Source: Escherichia coli (GTDB lineage Bacteria; Pseudomonadota; Gammaproteobacteria; Enterobacterales; Enterobacteriaceae). From it: a stretch of DNA of 64,000 bases. Both the position numbers and the translations under genes were made by a program. Where the stretch lies: the NCBI RefSeq assembly GCF_024502345.1, contig NZ_JALDNN010000001.1; one strand, 5' to 3'. The stretch's first letter is position 1. Each line of letters starts with the position of its first letter. This document shows, in pieces, positions 244 through 12,093 of this stretch. Below the pieces are notes generated by a model. That model was given only the letters and a program-made list of their open reading frames with translations, was not told the origin of the DNA and searched no databases.

Positions 244-1545
244 ATGGCTCAGGAAATCGAATTAAAGTTTATTGTTAATCACAGTGCCGTTGAGGCGTTG
301 CGTGACCATCTCAATACGCTGGGCGGCGAGCACCATGACCCCGTGCAGTTGCTGAATATTTACTACGAAACGCCGGATAACTGGCTGCGTGGGCACGATA
401 TGGGCTTACGTATTCGTGGCGAAAACGGTCGCTATGAGATGACCATGAAAGTTGCAGGAAGAGTGACAGGCGGCTTACACCAGCGCCCGGAATATAACGT
501 GGCGTTGAGCGAACCGACGCTCGACCTGGCGCAGTTTCCCTCGGAAGTCTGGCCGAACGGCGAATTGCCTGCCGATCTCGCTTCCCGCGTACAACCGCTG
601 TTCTGCACCGATTTTTATCGCGAAAAATGGCTGGTGGCGGTCGATGGCAGCCGAATTGAAATCGCTCTCGATCAGGGTGAGGTGAAAGCGGGGGAATTTG
701 CTGAACCTATCTGTGAGCTGGAACTGGAGCTGCTTAGCGGCGACACGCGCGCGGTGCTGAAACTGGCGAACCAACTGGTATCGCAAATCGGATTACGCCA
801 GGGCAGCCTGAGCAAAGCGGCGCGTGGCTATCATCTGGCGCAGGGCAATCCGGCGCGTGAAATCAAACCGACCACCATTTTGCATGTTGCGGCAAAAGCC
901 GATGTGGAACAGGGGCTGGAAGCGGCGCTCGAGCTGGCGTTAGCGCAATGGCAGTATCATGAAGAACTGTGGGTACGCGGCAACGATGCGGCGAAAGAAC
1001 AGGTGCTGGCAGCCATTAGCCTGGTCCGTCATACGCTGATGCTGTTCGGTGGTATTGTGCCGCGTAAAGCGAGCACTCACTTACGTGATCTGCTGACTCA
1101 ATGCGAGGCGACCATTGCTTCTGCGGTTTCTGCCGTGACGGCGGTCTACTCTACCGAAACGGCAATGGCGAAGCTGGCGTTGACCGAATGGTTGGTAAGC
1201 AAAGCATGGCAGCCATTTTTAGATGCCAAAGCGCAGGGCAAAATCAGCGACTCCTTCAAACGCTTTGCCGATATCCATCTTTCCCGCCATGCCGCTGAAC
1301 TGAAAAGCGTTTTCTGCCAGCCGTTAGGCGATCGCTACCGTGACCAGTTGCCACGCCTGACGCGTGATATTGACTCAATACTGTTGCTGGCGGGTTACTA
1401 TGATCCTGTCGTCGCGCAAGCCTGGCTGGAGAACTGGCAGGGGCTGCATCACGCTATTGCGACCGGGCAACGCATCGAAATTGAACATTTCCGTAATGAG
1501 GCAAACAATCAGGAACCGTTCTGGTTGCACAGCGGAAAACGTTAA
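244..1545 (+). CDS. ygiF: Inorganic triphosphatase (CYTH domain), 433 aa
   Basis: ATG-initiated 433-aa ORF; recognised protein sequence and position directly upstream of glnE. Confidence 0.9.
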
Positions 1546-1567
1546 TCAGGCAAGGATAAAATCGCTT

Positions 1568-4408
1568 ATGAAGCCGCTCTCTTCACCGTTACAGCAGTAC
1601 TGGCAGACCGTTGTTGAGCGGCTGCCAGAGCCTTTAGCCGAGGAATCACTTAGCGCGCAGGCGAAGTCAGTACTTACTTTCAGTGACTTTGTGCAGGACA
1701 GCGTGATTGCGCATCCAGAGTGGCTGACGGAACTGGAAAGCCAACCGCCGCAGGCCGACGAATGGCAGCATTACGTTGCATGGTTGCAGGAGGCGCTCAG
1801 TAATGTGAGTGACGAAGCCGGGTTAATGCGCGAGCTGCGGCTGTTCCGGCGGCGCATTATGGTACGTATCGCCTGGGCGCAAACGCTGGCACTGGTTACT
1901 GAAGAGAGCATATTGCAGCAGCTCAGCTATCTGGCGGAGACACTGATTGTTGCGGCGCGTGACTGGCTATATGACGCCTGCTGCCGCGAGTGGGGAACGC
2001 CGTGCAATGCGCAGGGCGAAGCGCAACCGCTGCTGATTTTAGGCATGGGTAAGCTGGGCGGCGGGGAACTGAATTTCTCCTCAGATATCGATCTGATTTT
2101 TGCCTGGCCGGAACATGGTTGTACGCAGGGTGGACGCCGGGAACTGGATAATGCGCAGTTTTTTACCCGCATGGGGCAGCGGCTGATTAAAGTGCTGGAT
2201 CAACCAACGCAGGATGGCTTTGTCTATCGCGTGGATATGCGACTGCGTCCGTTTGGCGAAAGTGGCCCGCTGGTGCTGAGCTTTGCCGCGTTGGAAGATT
2301 ATTACCAGGAGCAGGGGCGCGACTGGGAGCGTTACGCGATGGTCAAGGCGCGGATTATGGGCGATAGCGAAGGCGTCTATGCTAACGAGTTGCGTGCGAT
2401 GCTGCGCCCGTTTGTTTTCCGTCGTTACATCGATTTCAGCGTGATTCAGTCGCTGCGCAACATGAAAGGGATGATTGCCCGTGAAGTGCGTCGACGTGGT
2501 TTGACCGACAATATCAAACTCGGCGCAGGCGGCATTCGCGAAATTGAATTTATCGTTCAGGTGTTCCAGCTCATTCGCGGTGGGCGCGAACCGTCGCTGC
2601 AGTCGCGCTCTTTACTGCCAACGCTCAGCGTCATTGCCGCGCTGCATCTGCTTTCTGAAAACGATGCTGAACAATTGCGAGTGGCGTATCTGTTCCTGCG
2701 GCGTCTGGAAAACCTGCTGCAAAGCATTAACGACGAACAAACCCAGACGCTTCCTTCTGATGAGCTTAACCGTGCGCGGCTGGCGTGGGCGATGGACTTT
2801 GCTGACTGGCCGCAACTGACCGGGGCGCTGACCGCACATATGACCAATGTGCGCCGGGTGTTTAATGAATTGATTGGCGACGACGAAAGTGAAACTCAGG
2901 AAGAGTCGCTGTCGGAACAGTGGCGTGAGCTGTGGCAGGATGCGTTGCAGGAAGATGACACTACGCCAGTGCTGGCGCATCTTAGCGAGGACGATCGCAA
3001 ACAGGTACTAACGCTGATTGCCGATTTCCGCAAAGAGCTGGATAAGCGCACCATCGGGCCGCGAGGACGTCAGGTGCTCGACCATCTGATGCCGCATCTG
3101 CTAAGTGATGTCTGTGCGCGTGAAGACGCTGCCGTTACGCTGTCGCGCATTACCGCCTTGCTGGTGGGGATTGTTACCCGCACCACCTATTTAGAATTGC
3201 TCAGTGAATTCCCCGCGGCGCTTAAACATTTGATTTCTCTGTGTGCCGCGTCGCCGATGATTGCCAGCCAGCTGGCGCGTTATCCATTATTGCTGGATGA
3301 ATTGCTCGATCCAAACACCCTTTACCAGCCGACGGCGACCGATGCCTACCGCGATGAGTTGCGCCAGTATTTGCTGCGCGTGCCGGAAGATGACGAAGAG
3401 CAACAGCTTGAGGCGCTGCGTCAGTTCAAACAGGCGCAGCTGTTACGCATCGCCGCAGCGGATATCGCCGGTACGCTACCGGTGATGAAAGTGAGCGATC
3501 ACTTAACCTGGCTGGCGGAAGCCATGATAGATGCCGTCGTTCAGCAGGCGTGGGTTCAAATGGTTGCCCGCTACGGTAAGCCGAATCACCTGAACGAACG
3601 CGAAGGGCGTGGTTTTGCAGTGGTCGGCTACGGCAAGCTGGGCGGCTGGGAGTTAGGCTACAGTTCCGATCTTGACCTGATCTTCCTCCATGATTGCCCA
3701 ATGGATGCGATGACTGACGGCGAGCGGGAAATCGACGGGCGGCAGTTTTATCTGCGTCTGGCGCAACGCATTATGCATCTGTTCAGTACGCGTACCTCTT
3801 CCGGCATTTTGTATGAAGTGGATGCTCGACTGCGTCCGTCCGGGGCGGCGGGAATGCTGGTGACATCCGCAGAAGCATTTGCCGATTATCAGAAAAACGA
3901 GGCCTGGACGTGGGAACATCAGGCGCTGGTGCGTGCGCGTGTAGTGTACGGCGATCCGCAGCTCACCGCGCACTTTGACGCGGTGCGTCGTGAGATTATG
4001 GCGCTGCCGCGCGAAGGCAAAACCCTGCAAACAGAAGTGCGGGAAATGCGCGAGAAAATGCGCGCTCATCTCGGCAATAAACATCGCGATCGCTTTGATA
4101 TCAAAGCCGATGAAGGCGGAATTACCGATATCGAATTTATTACCCAATATCTGGTGTTGCGCTACGCTCATGAAAAACCGAAGTTAACGCGCTGGTCAGA
4201 CAACGTGCGCATTCTGGAACTGCTGGCACAAAACGACATTATGGAAGAGCAGGAAGCGATGGCGCTGACCCGTGCTTACACGACGCTTCGCGATGAACTT
4301 CATCATCTGGCATTACAGGAATTGCCGGGCCATGTGTCGGAGGATTGCTTCACCGCAGAGCGTGAACTGGTGCGGGCAAGCTGGCAGAAGTGGCTGGTGG
4401 AAGAATGA
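1568..4408 (+). CDS. glnE: Glutamine synthetase adenylyltransferase/adenylyl-removing enzyme, 946 aa
   Basis: ORF track gives 1364..4408; trimmed to internal ATG at 1568 ([12 protein letters not shown]...), which gives the expected 946 aa; two nucleotidyltransferase motifs (GKLGGxELxxxSDxD) visible. Confidence 0.93.
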
Positions 4409-9803: not shown

Positions 9804-9925
9804 TGTAGTTTCCCTGTACTGATAGGTGTTGAGTGCCATTGTAGTGCGATAAGGGTAAGTCATAAACCAGAATTATGTGAAGCTATGCGTTGCTGCCGCT
9901 AATCATTAGCGTTATAGTGAATCCG

Positions 9926-10176
9926 CTTATTCTCAGGGCGGGGCGAAATTCCCCACCGGCGGTAAATCAACTCAGTTGAAAGCCCGCGAGCGCTTTGGGT
10001 GCGAACTCAAAGGACAGCAGATCCGGTGTAATTCCGGGGCCGACGGTTAGAGTCCGGATGGGAGAGAGTAACGATTCTGTCGGGCATGGACCCGCTCACG
10101 TTATTTTGGCTATATGCCGCCACTCCTAAGACTGCCCTGATTCTGGTAACCATAATTTTAGTGAGGTTTTTTTACC
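9926..10176 (+). promoter_or_regulatory. FMN riboswitch (RFN element) in the ribB 5' leader
   Basis: Conserved RFN core CAGGGCGGGGCGAAAUUCCCCACCGGCGGUAAA ... AUCCGGUGUAAUUCCGGGGCCGACGGUUAGAGUCCGGAUGGGAGAGAGUAACG; putative -10 TATAGT at 9913-9918. Confidence 0.88.
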
Positions 10177-10830
10177 ATGAATCAGACGCTACTTTCCTCT
10201 TTTGGTACGCCTTTCGAACGTGTTGAAAATGCACTGGCTGCGCTGCGTGAAGGACGCGGTGTAATGGTGCTTGATGATGAAGACCGTGAAAACGAAGGTG
10301 ATATGATCTTCCCGGCAGAAACCATGACCGTTGAGCAGATGGCGCTGACCATTCGCCACGGTAGCGGTATTGTTTGCCTGTGCATTACTGAAGATCGCCG
10401 TAAACAACTCGATCTGCCAATGATGGTAGAAAATAACACCAGCGCCTATGGCACCGGTTTTACCGTGACCATTGAAGCGGCTGAAGGTGTGACTACCGGT
10501 GTTTCTGCCGCTGACCGTATTACGACCGTTCGCGCAGCGATTGCCGATGGCGCAAAACCTTCTGATCTGAATCGCCCGGGCCACGTTTTCCCACTCCGCG
10601 CTCAGGCTGGTGGTGTACTGACGCGTGGCGGTCATACTGAAGCAACTATTGATCTAATGACGCTGGCAGGCTTTAAACCGGCTGGTGTGCTGTGTGAGCT
10701 GACTAATGACGATGGCACGATGGCGCGTGCACCAGAGTGCATTGAGTTTGCCAATAAACACAATATGGCACTCGTGACTATTGAAGACCTGGTGGCATAC
10801 CGTCAGGCACATGAGCGTAAAGCCAGCTGA
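10177..10830 (+). CDS. ribB: 3,4-dihydroxy-2-butanone 4-phosphate synthase, 217 aa
   Basis: 217-aa ORF; recognised sequence; follows FMN riboswitch. Confidence 0.93.
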
Positions 10831-10862
10831 AAACCGCTGCTTAATTTACTGCCTTAATCAAG

Positions 10863-10897
10863 AAACCGAAGTTGTAGCAGGCTTCGGTTTTTATTTT
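10863..10897 (+). terminator. ribB rho-independent terminator
   Basis: AACCGAAG...CTTCGGTT hairpin followed by TTTATTTTT. Confidence 0.6.
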
Positions 10898-11091
10898 TCC
10901 CTGCTATGCAAGATGTTAATTCCGCTTCTCTTTCTATGAGAAAATTTCATTAATATCAGGCATTCTTTTTCATTATGATCAAAATCATATAATTGTTCCG
11001 TTATTATGCGACCATATGAATATATCCGAAAAAGGATATGTGAAATTTATGCGCTAAATGTTTAGTATTGTTAAATATTAAGGGTAAAAGG

Positions 11092-11262
11092 ATGTTTATC
11101 GCCTGGTACTGGATTGTATTGATTGCTCTTGTTGTGGTGGGTTATTTCCTGCATTTGAAACGTTATTGTCGGGCGTTTCGCCAGGACAGAGACGCACTGC
11201 TTGAAGCGCGGAACAAATACTTAAACAGTACGAGAGAAGAGACAGCCGAAAAGGTAGAATAA
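11092..11262 (+). CDS. Small single-pass membrane protein, 56 aa (MFIAWYWIVLIALVVVGYFL...)
   Basis: Track ORF starts at TTG 11068; internal ATG 11092 has a better SD (AAGGGTAAAAGG); hydrophobic helix then basic/charged tail; strong terminator immediately downstream. Confidence 0.5.
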   Translation: MFIAWYWIVLIALVVVGYFLHLKRYCRAFRQDRDALLEARNKYLNSTREETAEKVE

Positions 11263-11282
11263 GGCTTTAGTGAAGCTAGCAG

Positions 11283-11313
11283 AAGTTGTCCATGCGCTGG
11301 ACAACTTCTGATG
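11283..11313. terminator. Bidirectional terminator between small ORF and zupT
   Basis: Perfect hairpin CAGAAGTTGTCCA-TGCGC-TGGACAACTTCTG. Confidence 0.6.
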
Positions 11314-11319
11314 TTGCTT

Positions 11320-12093
11320 TTAACCAATTCCCGCCGTTTGTAGCAGCACTAAACTGAATCCCATCACTGACATTCCACATAGTACGCCATAGCTGGGGTT
11401 ATTATTAGGGTCAATCTCTTTGGCGAGCGGCATTAATTCATCAACCGAGAGCGCCACCATAATTCCTGCAACCGCCGCCATGATTGCCGCCATGACCACC
11501 GGGGAAATCATGCTACCGAGGATTAACCACGCCAGCACACCACCAAGAATTTCTGCCAATCCAGAAATCCCCGCCCACAGAATTGCCGTGCGTTTAGAAC
11601 CCGTTGCTGCATAAACCGGGCCTGCAACCGCCAGACCTTCAGGAATATTGTGCAACGCGACGGCCAGTGCGATGCCAAATCCCAGCTCCAGGTTGCTGCT
11701 CGCCGTGACAAAGGTGGCAATCCCTTCCGGGAAGTTATGCAGACTGATGCCGAGAGTGAGCAGAATGGCTGTGCGCTTGATCGATTTTGGCAACGGCTGC
11801 ACCGATTTTTGCATTAAATCCTGCGGATGCGCATGTGGCAACATGCGGTCCAGGCCAAAATAGCCAAGCAGACCGAAGATAAACATTCCATAACCCAACA
11901 CAGGCGACATTCCTTCAGCTGCTAGTGCGGCAGGAAGCATTTCCATTAATGAGATGAGCAACATGATCCCCGCCGCAAATCCTAGCGAAAACGCCAGTAA
12001 GCGGTTCGAGGGTTTTTGCCCGAGAACGCCGAGAAACGCGCCAATAAACGTGGCTGCCCCCGCCAGTATGGTCAGAATGAGAGGTACTGACAT
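11320..12093 (-). CDS. zupT: Zinc transporter ZupT (ZIP family), 257 aa
   Basis: Track ORF 271 aa trimmed to [19 protein letters not shown]...; multi-TM ZIP protein. Confidence 0.9.

What the first reader, a model, noticed from the sequence alone, without database searches (positions are those of the whole stretch)
11060..11315. Small membrane-protein gene with its own strong terminator between ribB and zupT
A 56-aa ORF (ATG 11092, good SD) encodes one hydrophobic helix followed by a charged tail (…RYCRAFRQDRDALLEARNKYLNSTREETAEKVE) and is followed by a perfect 13-bp-stem hairpin. Small single-TM proteins like this are often unannotated regulators of transporters or sensor kinases; its position next to the zinc importer zupT is suggestive.
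Basis: inference. Interest (0 to 1): 0.3.

Follow-up and report, generated by a model that had tools for sequence, protein, structure and literature searches.

The report
Known small membrane protein gene yqiD
The ORF is real, but it is the already annotated and experimentally detected E. coli small-protein gene yqiD (b4756), a self-contained transcription unit encoding a one-helix membrane protein of unknown function, with nothing in the sequence tying it to zinc.

Summary
ATG 11092 to TAA 11262 encodes 56 aa behind a TAAGGG Shine-Dalgarno sequence and is followed by a perfect 13-bp hairpin (11280-11310). It is not new. It is yqiD/b4756, annotated in K-12 and about 4,400 RefSeq E. coli genomes. 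VanOrsdel et al. 2018 published the identical 56-aa sequence, detected by chromosomal SPA tag and seen in ribosome profiling.

Orthologs in 30 loci all keep the ORF. dN/dS is 0.03-0.11 over codons 1-42 while synonymous sites are saturated. The family is restricted to Enterobacteriaceae. The protein has one N-terminal transmembrane helix, predicted N-out/C-in, then a conserved basic juxtamembrane helix (invariant A28, R30, R33, A35) and a variable acidic tail.

The unit also has a conserved ~118-nt upstream block starting at an invariant TATGAT. Its transcript matches the ~320-nt Hfq-bound RNA "ig-ribB-zupT" (Bilusic 2014). An orphan RpoS-holoenzyme SELEX peak (Shimada 2017) falls in its promoter region.

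The zinc/ZupT idea rests only on convergent adjacency. There is no Zur box. ZupT is identical across two YqiD haplotypes that differ by about a third of their residues. One isolate has lost yqiD but keeps zupT. Function remains unknown.

The parts
10974..10989 (+). Near-invariant palindrome TATGATC(A/G)AAATCATA. Its left arm TATGAT (10974-10979) is the best-supported -10 hexamer candidate, and the palindrome may also be an operator.
   Evidence: Cross-genus homology starts sharply here. TATGAT is invariant at 116-119 nt from the ATG in all taxa, while upstream -35-like elements are weak and variable. It matches only 8/10 of the FNR/CRP consensus cores. The function is inferred, not shown.
10986..11091 (+). 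Conserved leader (predicted 5' UTR of about 78-105 nt). It includes an alternative, poorly conserved -10 candidate TATTAT (11002-11007) and a near-invariant TGTTAAAT (11069-11076).
   Evidence: The ATG-proximal 60 nt is 73-85% identical across genera, against 48-67% at third codon positions. There is no global conserved fold. The RpoS-holoenzyme SELEX peak maps to about window 11024 (PMC5493296; coordinate conversion is my inference).
11020..11041 (+). Small leader hairpin AUAUAUCC-GAAAAA-GGAUAUGU.
   Evidence: It is present, with compensatory changes (AUAUCC/GGAUAU versus AUACCU/AGGUAU), in Escherichia, the C. amalonaticus-like clade and Intestinirhabdus. It is weak or absent in the C. freundii complex and Salmonella.
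11079..11084 (+). Shine-Dalgarno sequence TAAGGG, 7 nt upstream of the ATG.
   Evidence: AAGGG is conserved in nearly all taxa. One-nucleotide indels between the SD and the ATG among species break the in-frame TTG-11068 extension, which supports ATG 11092 as the start.
11092..11262 (+). yqiD (b4756) coding sequence, 56 aa plus stop. Residues ~2-22 form the transmembrane helix, 23-42 the conserved basic amphipathic juxtamembrane helix, and 43-56 the variable acidic tail.
   Evidence: annotation. (identical published sequence). (intact in 30/30 loci, dN/dS 0.03-0.11). (conserved columns). (hydropathy and charge). (AlphaFold2: single helix 3-55, pLDDT 73).
11280..11321 (+). Intrinsic terminator: 13-bp stem (11280-11292 / 11298-11310), loop UGCGC, tail AUGUUGCUUUU. 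It lies between the convergent yqiD and zupT genes, and its U-run overlaps the zupT stop codon.
   Evidence: Covariation: 95% of cells paired, 3 of 13 pairs with changes on both sides, and 0/500 shuffles reach the covariation score. A hairpin of different sequence occupies this position in most other clades.
10861..10892 (+). ribB terminator (context). It separates ribB from the yqiD unit.
11320..12093 (-). zupT (context), convergent with yqiD.

Best explanation
The feature is yqiD (b4756), a known and independently transcribed E. coli small-protein gene. Four things are shown. The 56-aa protein is made, by chromosomal SPA tag immunoblot and tetracycline ribosome profiling. A ~320-nt transcript from this interval exists and co-immunoprecipitates with Hfq. 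The upstream non-coding DNA drives a reporter. RpoS holoenzyme binds the spacer in vitro. Shown here: the protein, not just the DNA, is under strong purifying selection, and the terminator hairpin is maintained by compensatory change. The upstream block, including the ~78-105-nt leader, is conserved beyond neutral expectation. The rest is inferred. Transcription probably starts about 7 nt after the invariant TATGAT (-10), from a promoter with a weak -35 that sigma-S can use, and ends at the hairpin, giving an RNA of about 310-340 nt. The product probably inserts into the inner membrane N-out/C-in through residues ~2-22 (probability about 0.85). It then presents a conserved basic amphipathic helix (K23 R24 R27 A28 R30 R33 A35) at the cytoplasmic membrane face. 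I think it most likely works like other small bitopic proteins (MgtS, MgrB, AcrZ), by binding and modulating a larger membrane protein or complex (probability about 0.5). The partner is unknown, and ZupT is only a positional candidate (about 0.1). Expression is probably tuned after transcription through the Hfq-bound leader.
For: Identity: annotation as yqiD/b4756; identical 56-aa sequence in PMC6001520. Expression: SPA tag, ribosome profiling; PMC4152368: 320-nt Hfq-bound RNA with a 56-aa ORF; reporter fusion, bioRxiv 2025.06.10.658842; RpoS SELEX peak in the zupT/ribB spacer; listed among NAD-capped RNA genes, which fits an A-start transcript of its own. Coding selection. Family and motif. 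Topology. Promoter and leader; the predicted RNA lengths of 337 or 309 nt compare with ~320 nt observed. Terminator.
Against: No experiment in the searched literature addresses localisation, partners or phenotype. The transcription start site is not mapped here, and two -10 candidates fit the Northern size equally well. Mid-helix residues 8-17 vary freely among I/V/L/A/G. That fits a plain membrane anchor as well as a specific helix-helix interface. The reduced RNA level in the hfq mutant could be indirect, because RpoS fails to accumulate without Hfq and the promoter region binds RpoS holoenzyme.
Confidence: 0.8

Rival explanations
1. YqiD is a dedicated accessory or regulatory subunit of the neighbouring metal importer ZupT, analogous to MgtS-MgtA or MntS-MntP, and belongs to zinc homeostasis.
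For: zupT is convergent, 13-78 bp downstream, in 30/30 loci and in two more distant homolog contexts. The adjacency survives insertions of 3.6-5.6 kb on the ribB side.
Against: There is no Zur box: the best match is 13/23, a score reached by 24% of random windows. ZupT protein is 100% identical between two E. coli YqiD haplotypes that share only 66-69% of residues, four of the differences lying in the transmembrane helix. The divergence boundary lies at the zupT 3' end. The YqiD family is tiny and confined to Enterobacteriaceae, whereas ZIP transporters are widespread (general knowledge). A blood isolate lost yqiD through an IS1-associated deletion but keeps an intact zupT. A short gap between two converging gene ends offers little room for insertions, so the adjacency is weak evidence. 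The single ZupT-YqiD 'fusion' protein comes from an inversion or chimera.
Confidence: 0.1
2. The ~320-nt transcript is a dual-function RNA. Besides encoding YqiD, its conserved leader acts as an Hfq-dependent base-pairing regulator in trans, as in SgrS/SgrT.
For: The RNA binds Hfq and its level is reduced in the hfq mutant. The authors raised this question themselves. The leader is more conserved than third codon positions. There is a strong terminator hairpin.
Against: The terminator U-run is only 4 nt, which is short for a typical Hfq-dependent sRNA. The leader has no stable conserved fold. No targets are known. Leader conservation and Hfq binding are equally well explained if yqiD mRNA is itself a target of sRNAs. 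The hfq effect may be indirect, through RpoS. The E. albertii leader has diverged although its protein is conserved.
Confidence: 0.15
3. YqiD is a type I toxin-like hydrophobic peptide kept in check by an antisense or overlapping RNA.
For: It is small, has a single hydrophobic helix, and has a long conserved leader and an Hfq association.
Against: There is one copy per genome at a fixed syntenic site (median 1 place). The tagged protein is readily detected in normal growth. No promoter-like or terminator-like signals were found on the opposite strand. It has a long hydrophilic helical C-terminus under selection. There are no PADLOC or meaningful PHROG matches.
Confidence: 0.03
4. The ORF is a chance open frame in an AT-rich spacer, and only the RNA or DNA elements matter.
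For: Short ORFs are common by chance (one search lists many).
Against: dN/dS is 0.03-0.11 with dS saturated. Variable columns by codon position are 20/16/37. The ORF is intact in 30/30 loci. The protein has been detected.
Confidence: 0.01

Closest known systems
YqiD (b4756, YP_009518818.1) of E. coli K-12
   Same: Identical 56-aa sequence, and the same position between ribB and a convergent zupT.
   Different: Nothing differs. The window comes from a strain whose locus is 100% identical to E. coli GF3-3.
ig-ribB-zupT, the ~320-nt Hfq-binding intergenic RNA (Bilusic et al. 2014, PMC4152368)
   Same: Same interval, a size matching the promoter-to-terminator distance found here (309-337 nt), and a stated 56-aa ORF.
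   Different: It was described as a candidate sRNA before the protein was shown to exist. The 2018 protein paper does not mention Hfq or this RNA. Its exact ends were not available to me.
Small bitopic inner-membrane modulators of E. coli (MgtS, MgrB, AcrZ, PmrR)
   Same: Size class, a single predicted transmembrane helix, its own small transcription unit, and restriction to enterobacteria.
   Different: There is no sequence similarity to any of them. No partner, inducing signal or phenotype is known. YqiD is longer, and its cytoplasmic helix (~34 aa) is its most conserved part.
DUF4051 (label given by UniRef/NCBI to several family members)
   Same: Orthologs in Citrobacter, Salmonella, Kosakonia, Phytobacter and E. 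fergusonii carry this label.
   Different: The Pfam library available here gives no such hit, even for the labelled members. The label could not be reproduced, and it says nothing about function.
MntS / MntP (a small protein controlling a metal transporter)
   Different: To my knowledge MntS is not a membrane protein, and mntS is metal-regulated by MntR and Fur. No MntR, Fur or Zur operator is found upstream of yqiD.

Membership tests
E. coli YqiD (b4756) | The 56-aa sequence is identical or nearly identical to the K-12 protein. | tested here: met
   The window translation is identical to the published sequence. RefSeq names it yqiD in the matching genomes.
E. coli YqiD (b4756) | The locus lies between ribB and zupT, convergent with zupT. 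| tested here: met
DUF4051 (Pfam) | Scores above the gathering threshold against the Pfam model. | tested here: inconclusive
   No DUF4051 hit for the query or for six members that carry the label. The model appears to be missing from this Pfam copy.
Small bitopic inner-membrane regulatory proteins (MgtS/MgrB/AcrZ type) | About 60 aa or fewer, with one transmembrane helix. | tested here: met
   56 aa. Kyte-Doolittle mean 2.43 for residues 2-20. AlphaFold2 predicts a single helix.
Small bitopic inner-membrane regulatory proteins (MgtS/MgrB/AcrZ type) | Shown to reside in the inner membrane with a defined topology. | not testable with these tools
   Only the positive-inside rule is available: no charged residue before the helix, and 5 K/R versus 2 D/E in residues 23-37.
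Small bitopic inner-membrane regulatory proteins (MgtS/MgrB/AcrZ type) | Binds and modulates a specific larger membrane protein. | not testable with these tools
   No interaction data were found. It is absent from solved structures.
Hfq-dependent dual-function sRNA (SgrS/SgrT type) | The RNA binds Hfq in vivo. | not testable with these tools
   Reported by co-IP and Northern blot in PMC4152368. Not tested here.
Hfq-dependent dual-function sRNA (SgrS/SgrT type) | Intrinsic terminator with a long U-tail. | tested here: inconclusive
   The hairpin is strong and conserved, but the U-run is only 4 nt.
Hfq-dependent dual-function sRNA (SgrS/SgrT type) | Regulates other mRNAs by base pairing. | not tested
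   No targets are reported. No sRNA or target set was available to screen.
Zur (zinc) regulon | A Zur box in the promoter region. | tested here: not met
   The best match is 13 of 23 positions, a score reached by 24% of random windows. The consensus was taken from memory.
Type I toxin-antitoxin | An antisense or overlapping regulatory RNA gene. | tested here: not met
   No promoter-like or terminator-like sites on the minus strand between 10700 and 11500. This is a weak test.
Type I toxin-antitoxin | Multi-copy or variable genomic distribution. | tested here: not met
   Median of one place per genome, always at the same locus.

The most novel reading that the evidence does not exclude
The yqiD transcript is a stationary-phase (sigma-S-driven), Hfq-bound dual-function RNA. 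Its conserved leader would regulate other mRNAs in trans, while its protein modulates a membrane transporter, possibly ZupT. That would link metal uptake to growth phase.
Probability: 0.07. Interest if true: 0.55.

Novelty: already known. Interest (0 to 1): 0.13.

Why it matters
As a discovery it does not matter, because the gene is annotated and its product has been detected. It is still one of many validated E. coli small membrane proteins with no known function. This analysis connects three published observations that the papers I read do not connect. These are the Hfq-bound RNA ig-ribB-zupT (2014), an orphan RpoS-holoenzyme binding peak between convergent genes (2017), and the YqiD protein (2018). 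It also gives concrete handles for experiments:

- the invariant residues A28, R30, R33 and A35
- a conserved leader
- an invariant TATGAT/palindrome
- two natural haplotypes
- a natural deletion strain

Tried and rejected
- **Zinc regulation.** Scans against Zur, Fur, MntR, NikR and other operator consensus sequences (quoted from memory) over 10893-11095 gave nothing convincing. Only FNR, ArcA, OxyR and NikR scores were uncommon in random windows (1-3%), and those best matches lie wholly or partly outside the conserved block.
- **FNR/CRP site.** The conserved palindrome matches only 8/10 of either core and has A at the discriminating position, so it is left unassigned.
- **Metal-binding His21/Cys26.** These are invariant in the core group but not in Kosakonia, Phytobacter and other members. 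Rejected as a family feature.
- **Family searches.** Pfam, NCBIfam, PHROGs and PADLOC gave only sub-threshold matches of the transmembrane-plus-basic-stretch type.
- **Solved structures.** The only matches are non-significant (E >= 0.12), to the basic helix of GapR. I treat this as compositional.
- **Rfam.** Nothing in the yqiD unit. The only hits are the FMN riboswitch and a sub-threshold STnc240 match at the ribB terminator.
- **Leader structure.** The consensus RNA structure is negligible: -1.75 kcal/mol with no covarying pairs, and z = -0.87.
- **ZupT-YqiD fusion protein P0123.** It turned out to be an inversion or chimera on a single 2-kb contig.
- **Supplementary tables.** Those of the three key papers were not held, so no TSS or RNA-end coordinates could be read.
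- **Complex modelling.** I did not model YqiD with ZupT, because the structure tool returns no interface metrics.

Full report
**Observation.**
An ORF starts at ATG 11092 and ends at TAA 11260-11262, and it encodes MFIAWYWIVLIALVVVGYFLHLKRYCRAFRQDRDALLEARNKYLNSTREETAEKVE. TAAGGG lies at 11079-11084, 7 nt upstream of the ATG. A perfect 13-bp hairpin (11280-11310, loop UGCGC) follows, then AUGUUGCUUUU. The hairpin folds at -25 kcal/mol with z = -4.15. The flanking genes are ribB, with its FMN riboswitch at 9925-10073 and its own terminator at 10861-10892, and a convergent zupT at 11320-12093 on the minus strand.

**Identity.**
The ORF is yqiD.
- A 501-nt query matched 4,432 of 5,426 complete E. 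coli genomes. The 19 full-length matches listed, taken at even steps down the ranking, all annotate "yqiD: protein YqiD".
- In K-12 MG1655 it is b4756 / YP_009518818.1 at 3183381-3183551.
- VanOrsdel et al. 2018 (PMC6001520) list exactly this 56-aa sequence between zupT and ribB. It is among 36 small proteins detected by immunoblot after chromosomal SPA tagging.
- They also note that YqiD was a previously unidentified positive in tetracycline-arrested ribosome profiling.

**Coding conservation.**
- A scan of one genome per species returned 27 loci. With three E. coli loci this gives 30, and all have an intact ATG-started ORF of 56-60 aa.
- Over codons 1-42, dN/dS against the window is 0.03-0.11, with dS of 1.3 to more than 2 (saturated) for cross-genus pairs. 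The pooled pN/pS is 0.12. Variable columns by codon position are 20/16/37.
- The C-terminal tail is looser (pN/pS 0.54), but its length is kept.
- One-nucleotide indels between the SD and the ATG in other species break the TTG-11068 extension that some gene callers use. This supports ATG 11092 as the start.

**Family.**
A profile search of 1.84 billion representative proteins found only 24 clusters at E <= 0.001. Named members come from Escherichia (including E. fergusonii and E. albertii), Citrobacter, Salmonella, Intestinirhabdus, Kosakonia, Phytobacter, Atlantibacter and a few Enterobacter. Some sources label them DUF4051, but the Pfam copy here does not reproduce that label, even for labelled members. 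Across the wider family the invariant residues are M1, A28, R30, R33 and A35, and I3, W5, W7 and R24 are nearly invariant. His21 and Cys26, which are invariant in the core group, are not universal.

**Protein anatomy.**
- Residues 2-20 have a Kyte-Doolittle mean of 2.43.
- No charged residue precedes the helix, and residues 23-37 carry 5 K/R against 2 D/E. The positive-inside rule therefore predicts N-out/C-in.
- AlphaFold2 with 23 sequences gives one continuous helix over residues 3-55, with pLDDT 73.
- The hydrophobic moment peaks at 0.55 for residues 22-39. Y25, A28, F29, A35, L36 and A39 fall on one face of the helix, with arginines flanking them. From this I infer a packing or membrane-interface surface.
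- No solved structure contains a relative.

**Transcription unit.**
- Cross-genus alignment shows that homology begins abruptly at TATGATC(A/G)AAATCATA (10974-10989) and continues to the ATG. Upstream of that point there is no homology.
- TATGAT is invariant and lies 116-119 nt from the ATG in every taxon. The -35-like elements upstream are weak and variable.
- The ATG-proximal 60 nt is 73-85% identical across genera, against 48-67% at third codon positions.
- The leader has no convincing global fold. A small hairpin at 11020-11041 is kept, with compensatory changes, in some clades only.
- Downstream, the terminator hairpin is 95% paired across ten sequences from Escherichia and Citrobacter. 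Three of its 13 pairs have changed on both sides, and 0/500 shuffles reach the covariation score.
- Most other clades have a hairpin of unrelated sequence at the same place. Where the gap to zupT is only 23-25 bp, a smaller hairpin overlaps the yqiD stop codon.

**Literature that fits this unit.**
- Bilusic et al. 2014 (PMC4152368) verified by Northern blot a ~320-nt Hfq-co-immunoprecipitating RNA between zupT and ribB. Its level was lower in hfq and RNase III mutants. They noted that it carries a 56-aa ORF.
- The distance from promoter to terminator here is 337 nt from TATGAT, or 309 nt from the less conserved TATTAT at 11002-11007.
- Shimada et al. 2017 (PMC5493296) list an RpoS-holoenzyme SELEX-chip peak at 3181642 in the "type-C" spacer zupT > < ribB, that is, with no gene to serve. 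After converting genome versions (my inference), this lies about 68 nt upstream of the yqiD ATG, near window 11024. So yqiD explains that orphan peak.
- A 2025 preprint shows that the yqiD upstream region drives GFP, and that natural variants change its expression.
- yqiD also appears among genes with NAD-capped transcripts.
- The 2018 protein paper mentions neither Hfq nor RpoS.
- A caveat: RpoS does not accumulate in hfq mutants. The lower RNA level in the hfq mutant may therefore be partly transcriptional.

**The zinc/ZupT idea.**

In favour:
- zupT is convergent, 13-78 bp downstream, in 30/30 loci and in two more distant homolog contexts.
- By contrast, the ribB side takes insertions: a four-gene chaperone-usher operon in B2/ST131 E. 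coli and dsbI-dsbL-assT in many Citrobacter and Salmonella.

Against:
- There is no Zur box. The best match is 13/23, a score reached by 24% of random windows.
- About 990 E. coli genomes carry a second yqiD haplotype that is only 66-69% identical in protein, with dS of about 2. It resembles the E. fergusonii allele by eye. ZupT is nevertheless 100% identical in them, and divergence stops near window 11343, about 25 nt inside the zupT 3' end.
- The YqiD family is far narrower than the ZIP transporters.
- Strain FCI23 lost yqiD through an IS1-associated deletion and keeps an intact zupT.
- The single ZupT-YqiD "fusion" protein comes from an inverted or chimeric 2-kb contig joined at a GATGTTC microhomology.

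Adjacency across a short gap between two converging gene ends is weak evidence in any case.

**Verdict.**
The most likely mechanism is that YqiD is an N-out/C-in bitopic inner-membrane protein. It would use its conserved basic juxtamembrane helix to bind a still unknown partner. It would be expressed from a weak-(-35) promoter usable by sigma-S, and its mRNA would be bound by Hfq. This mechanism is inference. A link to ZupT (about 0.1) and a dual-function RNA role (about 0.15) remain open but unsupported.

Noticed in passing
window 10974-11343; L002, L003: E. coli carries two deeply diverged yqiD haplotypes. About 990 of 5,426 genomes, including the O25b:H4-ST131 genomes listed, have an allele with 66-69% protein identity and dS of about 2, which resembles the E. 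fergusonii allele by eye. Divergence is confined to the leader, CDS and terminator, and identity returns to at least 95% inside zupT. RefSeq calls this allele 'hypothetical protein' rather than YqiD.
   Followed up: partly
window 10893-10973; L003 3569-8541; L014 and L025 ~420-3603: The ribB-yqiD spacer is an insertion hotspot. It holds a four-gene chaperone-usher fimbrial operon in B2 E. coli and the dsbI-dsbL-assT island in many Citrobacter and Salmonella. In B2 E. coli that same island sits beyond ygiD instead.
   Followed up: partly
L037 (E. coli FCI23) 2139-2836: An IS1B element replaces the fimbrial usher and subunit genes and yqiD, leaving zupT intact. This is a natural yqiD-null blood isolate.
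   Followed up: partly
window ~11024 (MG1655 v2 coordinate 3181642): An orphan 'type-C' RpoS-holoenzyme SELEX peak between the convergent zupT and ribB genes (Shimada 2017) is explained by the yqiD promoter, which was unannotated at the time.
   Followed up: partly
L031 1499-1876: A 125-aa predicted protein fuses ZupT residues 1-70 to the C-terminal part of a YqiD-like protein. The contig looks like an inversion or chimera at a GATGTTC microhomology, with the zupT 3' end still convergent downstream. It was seen in one sequencing run only.
   Followed up: yes
window 10829-10899: A sub-threshold Rfam match (29 bits against a gathering score of 55) to the enterobacterial sRNA STnc240 covers the ribB stop and terminator. 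This could be a ribB 3'-UTR-derived RNA.
   Followed up: no
L008 (E. albertii) ~600-705: The E. albertii leader is only 47-56% identical to the E. coli leader, although the protein is 89% identical. The leader seems to have been replaced or to have diverged rapidly in this species.
   Followed up: no
window 11020-11041: A small leader hairpin shows compensatory changes between Escherichia and the C. amalonaticus-like clade and Intestinirhabdus. It is absent in the C. freundii complex and Salmonella.
   Followed up: partly
window 11154-11210 (YqiD residues ~15-40): There is a non-significant resemblance (E 0.12-0.25) between the KRYCRAFRQDRDAL helix and the basic DNA-binding helix of GapR (UPF0335). 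It is probably compositional.
   Followed up: no
window 11068-11091: Metagenome gene callers often extend the ORF upstream, for example to TTG 11068, giving 62-94-aa versions. This inflates the apparent diversity of the family in protein databases.
   Followed up: yes
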